Positions 15,201 through 18,200 of a stretch of 64,000 nucleotides of DNA are shown here, one piece after another. This stretch comes from Escherichia coli (GTDB taxonomy: Bacteria; Pseudomonadota; Gammaproteobacteria; Enterobacterales; Enterobacteriaceae). The stretch's first letter is position 1, and each line of letters starts with the position of its first letter. The position numbers are program-made. The stretch lies in assembly GCF_003334305.1 (NCBI RefSeq), contig NZ_QOWS01000003.1; one strand, written 5' to 3'.

Positions 15201-18200
15201 ATCGTGGAGTGCTGGAGGTGGAGACGCCTTGTATGAGCCAGGCGACGGTAACCGATATTCATTTGGTCCCGTTTGAGACACGTTTCGTTGGCCCCGGGCA
15301 TTCGCAGGGGATGAATCTCTGGTTAATGACCAGCCCGGAATACCATATGAAACGCCTGCTGGTTGCCGGTTGTGGGCCGGTATTCCAGCTGTGCCGCAGC
15401 TTCCGTAATGAAGAGATGGGGCGTTATCACAACCCTGAGTTCACTATGCTGGAGTGGTATCGACCGCACTATGATATGTACCGGTTGATGAACGAGGTGG
15501 ACGATCTCTTACAACAGGTGCTGGACTGCCCGGCAGCAGAAAGCCTTTCTTATCAACAAGCTTTCTTGCGTTATCTGGAAATTGACCCGCTCTCTGCCGA
15601 CAAAACGCAACTGCGGGAAGTCGCAGCGAAACTGGATTTGAGCAATGTTGCTGATACCGAAGAAGACCGCGACACGCTGCTACAATTGCTGTTTACCTTT
15701 GGCGTAGAGCCAAATATTGGCAAAGAAAAACCGACCTTTGTGTACCACTTTCCAGCCAGCCAGGCATCACTGGCGCAAATCAGTACCGAAGATCATCGGG
15801 TCGCTGAACGCTTTGAGGTTTATTATAAAGGTATTGAGCTGGCGAATGGTTTCCATGAATTGACGGATGCCCGTGAGCAGCAACAACGCTTTGAACAAGA
15901 TAACCGTAAGCGCGCGGCGCGCGGTTTGCCGCAGCACCCCATTGACCAGAATCTGATTGAAGCCTTGAAAGTCGGTATGCCTGACTGTTCCGGCGTGGCA
16001 TTAGGTGTTGATCGTCTGGTGATGTTGGCGCTGGGCGCGGAGACACTGGCTGAAGTCATCGCCTTTAGCGTTGACCGGGCATAATTCTGAAAAATTACTG
16101 AATTAACAGCGAAGAATGGCGTGATAAGCGCCATTCTGTAGCATATGTTTTCATTTTTCCGTTAAAGGCCACAATTTAAGACTGGATATTTGATATCATC
16201 CAGGTATCAATTCTGTATTGGTTTTTACGCTGCCCGCTCAATGTTGGGCAGTGCAGTTCAGTGGGCGCGTTTTATACACGCGCTGAAATGAAGGATGGTT
16301 TCATGCCTCACACGATAAAAAAGATGAGTCTGATAGGACTCATATTGATGATCTTTACTTCCGTATTTGGATTTGCCAATAGCCCATCGGCTTATTACTT
16401 AATGGGTTATAGTGCGATTCCCTTTTATATATTTTCTGCATTGTTATTCTTTATTCCATTCGCCTTAATGATGGCTGAAATGGGAGCTGCCTATCGCAAA
16501 GAAGAAGGTGGTATCTATTCCTGGATGAATAATAGTGTCGGACCACGTTTTGCCTTCATTGGTACGTTTATGTGGTTTTCCTCTTATATCATCTGGATGG
16601 TGAGTACCTCCGCGAAAGTTTGGGTACCGTTCTCAACATTCCTCTATGGTAGCGACATGACCCAGCACTGGCGTATTGCTGGACTGGAGCCTACGCAGGT
16701 GGTTGGTCTGCTGGCAGTGGCATGGATGATTCTGGTCACCGTCGTTGCTTCAAAGGGGATTAATAAAATTGCCCGCATTACTGCGGTGGGCGGTATTGCA
16801 GTAATGTGTCTGAATTTAGTATTGCTGTTAGTAAGCATTACTATTTTGTTATTAAATGGTGGGCATTTCGCGCAGGATATTAATTTCCTTGCATCACCGA
16901 ACCCAGGTTATCAGTCCGGTCTGGCAATGCTATCGTTTGTGGTATTTGCTATTTTTGCCTATGGCGGAATTGAAGCGGTTGGTGGTCTGGTCGATAAAAC
17001 GGAAAATCCAGAAAAGAACTTTGCCAAAGGTATTGTTTTTGCCGCTATTGTTATTTCAATCGGTTATTCGCTGGCAATATTTTTATGGGGTGTCAGCACA
17101 AACTGGCAGCAGGTATTAAGTAATGGTTCCGTTAACCTCGGCAATATTACCTATGTGCTGATGAAGAGCCTCGGGGTGACGCTGGGTAACGCACTGCATT
17201 TGTCACCTGAAGCGTCATTGTCGCTGGGTGTATGGTTTGCGCGTATTACCGGACTTTCGATGTTCCTCGCTTATACCGGGGCGTTCTTTACGCTTTGCTA
17301 TTCACCGCTGAAAGCCATCATCCAGGGGACGCCGAAAGCGTTGTGGCCGGAACCGATGACGCGCCTGAATGCGATGGGGATGCCTTCTATCGCCATGTGG
17401 ATGCAGTGCGGGTTGGTTACTGTCTTCATCCTGCTGGTTTCGTTTGGTGGCGGTACCGCATCGGCGTTCTTTAACAAGCTGACGCTGATGGCGAACGTGT
17501 CTATGACGCTTCCTTACCTGTTCCTCGCGCTGGCTTTCCCGTTCTTTAAAGCACGTCAGGATCTCGACAGACCGTTTGTGATTTTCAAAACGCATTTGTC
17601 GGCAATGATTGCGACAGTGGTTGTCGTACTGGTGGTGACATTTGCGAACGTCTTCACCATCATTCAACCTGTGGTTGAAGCCGGAGACTGGGACAGCACA
17701 TTGTGGATGATTGGCGGCCCTGTCTTCTTCTCGCTGTTAGCGATGGCGATTTACCAGAACTATTGCAGTCGCATGGCGAATAAACCTGAGTTAGCTCTCG
17801 ACTGATCATATGAAATCCTGCAACTCATCGTCTCTCCGGCGATGAGTTGTCAGGAAGTAATGCGTATGGATGATACTCTCCAGGGCCGGTGATAACTGAA
17901 GATGATGTTAAGCTGCTAAATGAGCCACGTTGACATCATTTGGCAGCTTCATGCATTACAAACTTCCCGCCTGACGACCTTTGCCCGCAGAAGTTAATGT
18001 TCTCCCCGTTTGCTTACCGTTGAGGCTTTCCAGACGCATCTGGAAGGGCGGGAATGGCATATCGATACCGTGGGCGTGGAAGCCTGCCAGAATCAGCTGG
18101 TGGATCTCATGGCGTAGCGGCATACGGTGACCCATCTCAGCGGCGTAAATACGCAGCTCGAAAATCTGAATCCCCTGTTGCAGATCCACCAGGAAGACTT

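What the first reader, a model, noticed from the sequence alone, without database searches (positions are those of the whole stretch)
17806..17955. Compact yjeM-mscM junction with a 10-bp-stem hairpin; no room for yjeN/yjeO
Only 150 bp separate the convergent yjeM and mscM stops, and the gap contains a perfect 10-bp inverted repeat (caactcatcg … cgatgagttg, 17821-17849) without a flanking T-run. From memory, K-12 carries two small genes (yjeN, yjeO) between these loci, so this interval appears to be an indel site between strains, with the hairpin a possible junction scar or bidirectional terminator.
Basis: partly seen in the sequence, partly recalled or inferred. Interest (0 to 1): 0.3.

Follow-up and report, generated by a model that had tools for sequence, protein, structure and literature searches.

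The report
Deleted yjeN-yjeO site with two hairpins
The short gap between yjeM and mscM is a common E. coli variant in which two small accessory genes (yjeN, yjeO) were deleted, leaving the first ~15 codons of yjeN between two ordinary end-of-gene hairpins; this is a routine strain polymorphism.

Summary
Exactly 150 bp (17806-17955) separate the convergent yjeM and mscM stops. A perfect 10-bp inverted repeat lies at 17821-17830/17840-17849, extending to a 17-bp RNA stem, with no T-run. K-12 does carry yjeN and yjeO here.

Among 5426 complete E. coli genomes, about 44% have this compact junction. About 35% have K-12-type yjeN+yjeO, and about 5% have yjeN+yjeO behind a window-type left flank. 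About 16% lack the yjeN 5' end and are mostly yjeO-only. That last group includes 45 genomes (0.8%) with an IS630 plus an extra two-gene cassette.

The compact allele is a deletion derivative. It keeps the yjeN ribosome-binding site, the ATG and about 15 frameshifted codons. It also keeps a second hairpin (17910-17949) homologous to the yjeO-mscM spacer of E. albertii.

It sits unchanged upstream of intact yjeN in other E. coli and in E. albertii, and K-12 has a hairpin at the same place with four compensatory base-pair changes. It most likely acts as a U-less stem-loop that forms or protects the yjeM 3' end; this function is inferred.

Side lead: elsewhere, YjeO-family (DUF2645) genes are partners of an hcp-linked, Tse3-like lysozyme-fold protein. 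This suggests yjeO is an orphan T6SS immunity gene.

The parts
16303..17805 (+). yjeM (glutamate/GABA-family transporter, 500 codons). Its last ~12 codons (from ~17769) belong to the variable haplotype block.
   Evidence: ORF; RefSeq annotation of identical sequence; identity to K-12 falls from 100% to 84% in the last 100 nt.
17816..17855 (+). Hairpin 1: 17-bp RNA stem with a 5-nt loop (perfect 10-bp DNA core 17821-17849), 10 nt after the yjeM stop, with no U-tract. Proposed to form or protect the yjeM transcript 3' end.
   Evidence: Identical upstream of intact yjeN in other alleles and in E. albertii. The K-12 class has 4 compensatory pairs, and 98.3% of cells are paired.
17852..17857 (+). 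AGGAAG, the remnant of the yjeN ribosome-binding site.
   Evidence: Aligns with the AAGGAAG/AGGAA that precedes the yjeN ATG in N56, K-12 and E. albertii.
17866..17916 (+). 5' remnant of yjeN (pseudogene fragment): the ATG plus ~15 codons. A 1-bp deletion after 17886 shifts the frame to a TGA at 17890-17892. The residual ORF 17860-17892 reads MRMDDTLQGR*.
   Evidence: Collinear alignment with yjeN of N56, K-12, the GTDB E. coli representative, E. albertii and Salmonella. All three polymorphisms seen among compact alleles (17880del, 17882, 17888) fall here.
17910..17949 (.). Hairpin 2: 14-bp imperfect stem with a 12-nt loop, 6 nt downstream of the mscM stop on the minus strand. Its outer arms AAGCTGC/GCAGCTT and the trailing CATGCA are homologous to the E. 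albertii yjeO-mscM spacer. Proposed 3'-end stem-loop of mscM.
   Evidence: dG -19.3 to -19.7, z about -3.6; homology.
17956..21279 (-). mscM (miniconductance mechanosensitive channel, 1107 codons).

Best explanation
The 150-bp yjeM-mscM gap is the deletion-derived, gene-free allele of a small hypervariable locus. An ancestral Escherichia arrangement was yjeM - hairpin 1 - yjeN - yjeO - hairpin 2 - mscM, still seen in E. albertii. It lost about 0.6 kb, from about codon 15-20 of yjeN to about the yjeO stop. The breakpoint is probably at a short shared GCTGC. What remains is hairpin 1, the yjeN ribosome-binding site, ATG and first codons (now frameshifted and drifting), and hairpin 2. The deletion is shown by sequence comparison.

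The role of the hairpins is inferred. Each sits just after one of the two convergent stop codons. Each most likely acts as a U-less stem-loop that stops or blocks 3'-5' exonuclease trimming of the yjeM or mscM transcript after Rho-dependent or weak termination. Hairpin 1 is kept by selection and is not a by-product of the deletion.
For: 1. K-12 has yjeN and yjeO here.
2. Census of 5426 complete genomes: 2395 have the 150-bp gap, about 274 have yjeN+yjeO behind a window-type left flank, about 1881 have K-12-type yjeN+yjeO, and about 875 lack the yjeN 5' end. yjeO is present in 3025.
3. Window 17852-17916 aligns collinearly with the yjeN ribosome-binding site, ATG and first codons, with a 1-bp frameshift.
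4. Outgroups carry yjeN at this site: E. albertii has yjeN+yjeO, and Salmonella has yjeN alone.
5. The last ~45 nt of the gap match the E. albertii yjeO-mscM spacer hairpin.
6. Hairpin 1 is identical in undeleted alleles. The K-12-type hairpin has 4 pairs changed on both sides, 98.3% of cells paired, and 23-56% paired in the slid controls.
7. The variants found among compact alleles all fall in the yjeN remnant, while both hairpins are invariant in the strains sampled.
8. In other genera where yjeM abuts mscM, the 35-93 bp gap always holds a strong hairpin of unrelated sequence. Salmonella has a REP-like hairpin after yjeM.
9. [quoted passage not shown]
Against: The exact breakpoints cannot be fixed, because several virtual deletions score equally. 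No E. coli genome in the collection carries the direct parent allele, meaning yjeN-yjeO followed by a window-type hairpin 2. The remnant is only about 75% identical to extant yjeN alleles. The hairpin function rests on position, stability and covariation between only two allele classes. No 3'-end data for yjeM, yjeN or yjeO were found in the one Term-seq supplement that could be searched. In K-12 an assembled transcript spans the equivalent hairpin (PMC4168707), so it is not a strong terminator.
Confidence: 0.85

Rival explanations
1. The compact junction is the ancestral state, and yjeN-yjeO were inserted later in the K-12-like lineages. On this view it is an insertion polymorphism, not a deletion.
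For: In Citrobacter, Enterobacter, Klebsiella, Lelliottia and other genera, yjeM abuts mscM with only 35-93 bp between them. Deeper in the family, a gene-free junction is therefore the older state.
Against: The E. coli gap contains the yjeN ribosome-binding site, ATG and about 15 codons, with a frameshift. E. albertii and Salmonella carry intact yjeN at this site. The hairpins in the other genera are unrelated in sequence to the E. coli gap.
Confidence: 0.04
2. Hairpin 1 is a recombination scar or a recombinase target left by, or used for, excision of the yjeN-yjeO cassette.
For: It lies near the left edge of the variable block, and allele classes switch within about 50 nt of it.
Against: It is present, base for base, in alleles that still have yjeN-yjeO. 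The deletion junction lies 60-90 nt downstream. The hairpin is single-copy per genome. There are no flanking direct repeats. The divergent K-12-type flank keeps the structure through compensatory changes.
Confidence: 0.03
3. The two hairpins are true intrinsic (Rho-independent) terminators that stop RNA polymerase from both directions.
For: Both are stable stems placed right after convergent stop codons. Convergent gene pairs in the related genera have one shared strong hairpin.
Against: Neither strand has a U-tract, and the consensus scan found 0 sites. In K-12 a transcript was assembled across the equivalent hairpin (PMC4168707).
Confidence: 0.2
4. The remnant region encodes a functional small protein (MRMDDTLQGR) or a small RNA.
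For: A Shine-Dalgarno-like AGGAAG precedes in-frame ATGs at 17860 and 17866. A weak sigma-70-like match lies at 17847-17874.
Against: The ORF is not conserved. Strain WP8-S18-CRE-02 has a 1-bp deletion that changes the frame, and Nissle has two substitutions in it. Rfam gives no match. The promoter match is at the chance level.
Confidence: 0.04

Closest known systems
U-less 3'-terminal stem-loops of Rho-dependent E. coli transcripts (Dar & Sorek 2018, PMC6061677)
   Same: Energetically stable stem-loop immediately downstream of a stop codon, not followed by a uridine-rich stretch. Both hairpins here have these properties.
   Different: No 3'-end mapping, Rho-dependence data or exonuclease data exist for this locus in a compact-allele strain. 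Membership is inferred from anatomy only.
Gene-remnant (pseudogene fragment) deletion alleles in the E. coli accessory genome
   Same: Presence/absence polymorphism of small y-genes. The start of the lost gene is retained, frameshifted and drifting. A second, independent deletion allele (yjeO-only, keeping a 3' remnant of yjeN) occurs at the same locus.
   Different: Breakpoints could not be resolved to the base. The direct parent allele is not among the 5426 complete genomes and is approximated only by E. albertii.
Intrinsic bidirectional terminators between convergent genes
   Same: Inverted repeats between convergent stop codons that fold on both strands.
   Different: No U/A tracts flank the stems. 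There are two separate hairpins rather than one shared hairpin.
T6SS peptidoglycan glycoside-hydrolase effector-immunity pairs (Tse3/Tsi3, Tge/Tgi). This applies to the lost cassette, not to the hairpin.
   Different: There is no sequence similarity to Tse3 or Tsi3. DUF2645 is a small protein with three hydrophobic segments, not (from my own knowledge) a periplasmic lipoprotein like Tsi3. K-12 yjeO has no effector partner; the unrelated yjeN sits in that position. Toxicity and protection are untested.

Membership tests
Intrinsic (Rho-independent) terminator | G+C-rich stem-loop | tested here: met
   Hairpin 1: 17 bp, dG -27.2 kcal/mol. Hairpin 2: 14 bp, dG about -19.5 kcal/mol.
Intrinsic (Rho-independent) terminator | Run of U immediately 3' of the stem | tested here: not met
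   The scan found 0 sites on both strands. The sequence after the stems is CAGGAAGTAATG (+) and CAGGATTTCATATG (-).
Rho-dependent 3'-end protective stem-loop | Stable stem-loop with no U-rich tail, just downstream of the coding region | tested here: met
   The definition is taken from the abstract of PMC6061677.
Rho-dependent 3'-end protective stem-loop | Steady-state RNA 3' end at the base of the stem, with Rho and exonuclease dependence | not testable with these tools
   No supplementary files are held for PMC6061677. The supplements of PMC7815308 have no yjeM, yjeN or yjeO entry.
REP/BIME repetitive extragenic palindromes | Many copies per genome with the GCCGGATG-type consensus | tested here: not met
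   The 150-bp gap has a median of 1 place per genome and lacks the REP consensus. The Salmonella yjeM-yjeN spacer, in contrast, does carry a REP-like GCCGGATAAG...CATCCGGC.
Deletion-derived gene remnant (yjeN pseudogene fragment) | Collinear homology to the start of the intact gene in relatives | tested here: met
   Blastn aligned query positions 1-100 at 83.5% to N56-type alleles annotated as yjeN.
Deletion-derived gene remnant (yjeN pseudogene fragment) | Disrupted reading frame and relaxed constraint | tested here: met
   A 1-bp deletion leads to TGA at 17890-17892. All variants among the compact alleles sampled fall in the remnant (three strains only).
Deletion-derived gene remnant (yjeN pseudogene fragment) | Breakpoints defined to the base | tested here: inconclusive
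   Several virtual deletions of the E. albertii locus score equally, with the left breakpoint 40-57 nt into yjeN and the right breakpoint -11 to +5 nt around the yjeO stop. A shared GCTGC is a possible microhomology.
Conserved RNA/DNA secondary structure (hairpin 1) | Base pairs kept through compensatory changes | tested here: met
   13 pairs, 4 of them changed on both sides, 98.3% of cells paired, 23-56% in slid controls. The changes represent only two allele lineages.
T6SS effector-immunity pair (side lead: 237-aa protein + DUF2645/YjeO) | Effector with a toxin fold | tested here: met
T6SS effector-immunity pair (side lead: 237-aa protein + DUF2645/YjeO) | Small gene immediately downstream, and linkage to hcp, vgrG or PAAR | tested here: met
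   hcp - 234-aa gene - DUF2645 in Dickeya. 237-aa gene - DUF2645 - hcp in Xenorhabdus. The pair is not hcp-linked at the mscM site or in a Yersinia P2-like prophage.
T6SS effector-immunity pair (side lead: 237-aa protein + DUF2645/YjeO) | Toxicity of the effector and its neutralisation by the partner | not testable with these tools
   Needs expression and competition experiments.

The most novel reading that the evidence does not exclude
The yjeM-mscM junction is a recurrent landing and decay site for a T6SS effector-immunity cassette. On this reading, YjeO (DUF2645), an uncharacterised K-12 inner-membrane protein, is an orphan immunity protein against an Hcp-delivered, Tse3-like peptidoglycan glycoside hydrolase. 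That effector is a ~237-aa family with no Pfam model. The compact 150-bp allele is then the final decayed state of the islet. The intermediate-frequency mix of alleles (44% empty, 40% yjeN+yjeO, 15% yjeO-only, 0.8% with effector) would reflect gain and loss under interbacterial competition.
Probability: 0.5. Interest if true: 0.5.

Novelty: new member of a known kind. Interest (0 to 1): 0.22.

Why it matters
The junction itself matters little. It is a common deletion allele flanked by ordinary end-of-gene hairpins. It is useful mainly as a clean marker of allele class, and as an example of a hairpin kept by compensatory change across divergent haplotypes.

The context is more useful. It explains why yjeN and yjeO behave as accessory genes in pangenome studies. 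It also gives a testable function for the uncharacterised K-12 gene yjeO and the DUF2645 family: immunity to a lysozyme-fold T6SS effector.

Tried and rejected
- Rfam scan of 17500-18300 at E <= 1: no match.
- Consensus terminator scan: 0 sites. The two promoter-like hits are at the chance level.
- Direct repeats around the junction, as a sign of excision: none.
- Pinpointing the deletion breakpoints by scoring all virtual deletions of the E. albertii locus: ambiguous.
- Searching for a parent allele in E. coli (yjeN-yjeO followed by a window-type hairpin 2): none among 5426 genomes.
- YjeN as a remnant of the 237-aa effector: rejected; hhalign probability 0.3%.
- Term-seq evidence: no supplements are held for PMC6061677, and PMC7815308 has no yjeM, yjeN or yjeO entries.
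- Literature on DUF2645: no paper in the searchable library.
- The whole-window inverted-repeat listing was dominated by short palindromes and was replaced by a custom count.

Full report
**Observation**

The yjeM ORF ends with TGA at 17803-17805. The mscM ORF on the minus strand occupies 17956-21279. The gap 17806-17955 is therefore exactly 150 bp.

The inverted repeat CAACTCATCG/CGATGAGTTG is at 17821-17830 and 17840-17849, perfect, with 9 nt between the arms. As RNA it extends to a 17-bp stem, 17816-17832 paired with 17838-17855, with one bulge and a 5-nt loop. Its dG is -27.2 kcal/mol, z = -7.7 against dinucleotide shuffles.

No T-run follows on either strand, and a consensus terminator scan found nothing. 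Perfect stems of at least 10 bp with 3-12 nt loops occur at only four loci in the 64-kb window, against 0.8 expected.

Rfam has no match in the region.

**Is it an indel site?**

Yes. K-12 MG1655 carries yjeN (b4157) and yjeO (b4158) between yjeM and mscM. All 5426 complete E. coli genomes in the collection match the flanks. Allele-specific probes divide them as follows.

| Allele | Genomes | Share |
|---|---|---|
| Compact 150-bp gap | 2395 | 44% |
| yjeN+yjeO behind a window-type left flank ('N56 type') | about 274 | 5% |
| K-12-type left flank, with yjeN | 1881 | 35% |
| K-12-type left flank, yjeN 5' end missing (mostly yjeO-only) | about 875 | 16% |

The K-12-type left flank totals about 2756 genomes. 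yjeO is present in 3025 genomes, which fits these numbers.

Strains with the compact allele include O157:H7, O55:H7, Nissle 1917, 536, NC101 and BL21(DE3). By my own knowledge of these strains, that spans several phylogroups.

Between the window and K-12, the flanking genes are 95-100% identical in 100-nt bins. The divergent block begins sharply at about 17769, inside the last 12 codons of yjeM, and ends at the mscM stop.

**Direction of the event**

The gap is not featureless spacer.

- Positions 17806-17852 are almost identical to the yjeM-yjeN spacer of N56-type E. coli, of the GTDB E. coli representative and of E. albertii.
- From 17852, the sequence AGGAAG...ATGGATGATACTCTCCAGGG-CCGGTGATAACTGAAGATGA aligns collinearly with the yjeN ribosome-binding site, ATG and first codons. 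A 1-bp deletion brings a TGA into frame at 17890-17892.
- The last ~45 nt (AAGCTGC...GGCAGCTTCATGCA) have no counterpart in yjeO-bearing E. coli. They align with the E. albertii yjeO-mscM spacer hairpin GAAGCTGCC...GGCAGCTTCACGCA.
- E. albertii has yjeN+yjeO at this site, and Salmonella enterica has yjeN alone.

The compact allele is therefore a deletion derivative. It lost about 0.6 kb, from about codon 15-20 of yjeN to about the yjeO stop.

The exact breakpoints are ambiguous, because several virtual deletions score equally. A GCTGC shared by both sides (window 17912-17916) is a candidate microhomology.

The yjeO-only allele is a second, independent deletion. It removes yjeN from just after hairpin 1 and leaves the 3' end of yjeN.

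Deeper in the family the ancestral arrangement is mscM converging on epmA. yjeM is present only in the Escherichia/Citrobacter/Enterobacter group.

**The hairpins**

Hairpin 1 is not a scar. It is identical upstream of intact yjeN in four undeleted alleles, including that of E. albertii.

The divergent K-12-type flank has a 13-bp hairpin at the same position (TGCCCTATCGTC-loop-GACGATAGGGCG). Its inner six pairs are shared with the window type, and four outer pairs are changed on both sides (C-G to U-A, U-A to C-G, A-U to C-G, A-U to G-C).

Over nine allele variants, 98.3% of cells are paired, against 23-56% when the 3' partner is slid. Variation within each class is in the loop. These changes represent only two lineages. 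Even so, keeping 13 of 13 pairs across a block that is otherwise 40-50% diverged argues for selection on the structure.

Among three compact alleles examined, all differences (17880del, 17882, 17888) lie in the yjeN remnant, and both hairpins are unchanged. This is a small sample.

In other genera where yjeM abuts mscM, the 35-93 bp gap always contains a strong hairpin of unrelated sequence. Salmonella has a REP-like hairpin after yjeM. A stable stem after yjeM therefore seems to be what is conserved.

Neither window hairpin has a U-tract. [quoted passage not shown] This is an inference and was not measured.

In K-12, an RNA-seq assembly produced a transcript spanning yjeM-yjeN-yjeO (PMC4168707), so the equivalent hairpin is not a tight terminator. 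The one Term-seq supplement I could search had no entries for these genes.

**What was lost (side lead)**

YjeO is a DUF2645 protein with three hydrophobic segments. YjeN has no family assignment. It is confined to Escherichia and Salmonella, and its model gives only weak fold matches.

In Citrobacter, Enterobacter, Kosakonia and Pseudocitrobacter, a yjeO homologue lies at the same place downstream of mscM. There it directly follows a ~237-aa ORF.

The gene pair lies next to hcp in Dickeya and in Xenorhabdus, and inside a P2-like prophage in Yersinia.

Forty-five E. coli genomes carry a fifth allele at this very site: yjeM - truncated yjeO - IS630 - 237-aa gene - second DUF2645 gene - mscM. 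The second DUF2645 protein is 53% identical to K-12 YjeO.

This pattern fits an Hcp-linked effector-immunity pair, with yjeO in K-12 as an orphan immunity gene. The compact junction would then be the fully decayed islet. Toxicity and protection are untested.

I found no paper mentioning DUF2645 in the searchable library. The published mentions of yjeN or yjeO that I read are these:
- yjeO induction (2.6-fold) listed under the sigma-E regulon (PMC2731931);
- an association of yjeO with growth in milk (PMC11390585);
- the operon-prediction note on a yjeM-yjeN-yjeO transcript (PMC4168707).

**Verdict**

The 'junction scar' idea is wrong, and the 'bidirectional terminator' idea holds only loosely.

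The feature is an ordinary, very common deletion allele with a gene remnant and two end-of-gene stem-loops. Its interest is low. The only part that may be new is the inferred role of the lost yjeO gene family.

Noticed in passing
L008, L009, L021, L023 (yjeO-proximal ORFs); L091-L094 4001-5028; L095 5512-7012; L097 6001-7745: A ~237-aa protein family with no Pfam model directly precedes DUF2645 (YjeO-family) genes. Its AlphaFold model best matches the T6SS effector Tse3 and lytic transglycosylases. The pair is next to hcp in Dickeya and Xenorhabdus. This suggests YjeO/DUF2645 is a T6SS immunity family.
   Followed up: partly
L088 (AR13438), L091-L094; corresponds to window 17806-17955: A fifth allele at this site occurs in 45 of 5426 E. 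coli genomes: truncated yjeO, a ~50-bp duplicate of the mscM 3' end, IS630, the 237-aa gene and a second DUF2645 gene. The adjoining mscM 3' end is diverged, which indicates an imported segment.
   Followed up: partly
L086 2481-2630 (O157:H7 strain TR01): This genome also has a 150-bp junction, but a chimeric one: K-12-type sequence at both ends, including the last 14 nt of yjeO and its hairpin, and window-type sequence in the middle. ATCGTCT is duplicated at the left join. Other O157:H7 genomes are 100% window-type, so this is probably an assembly artefact.
   Followed up: partly
L002 1801-1897 (Dog168) and about 830 further genomes: The yjeO-only allele is an independent deletion of yjeN. 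It runs from just after hairpin 1 to about codon 80 and leaves a 3' yjeN remnant upstream of an intact yjeO.
   Followed up: partly
L099 4994-5520 (Salmonella enterica): Salmonella has yjeM-yjeN and then mscM, with no yjeO. REP-like elements (GCCGGATAAG...CATCCGGC) lie both between yjeM and yjeN and between yjeN and mscM. The called 125-aa YjeN probably starts too early.
   Followed up: no
window 43055-43081, 50315-50346, 58969-58995: These are the only other perfect hairpins in the window with stems of at least 10 bp and 3-12 nt loops. The one at 58969-58995 (AAAACGCCGACCA/TGGTCGGCGTTTT) has A and T runs on its flanks, like a bidirectional intrinsic terminator.
   Followed up: no
K-12 coordinate 4386122 (+), inside the mscM 3' end; equivalent to about window 18030: A supplementary table of PMC7815308 lists a plus-strand feature classed 'antisense' to mscM, about 100 nt downstream of the yjeO stop. 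I did not check which kind of transcript end that table reports.
   Followed up: no
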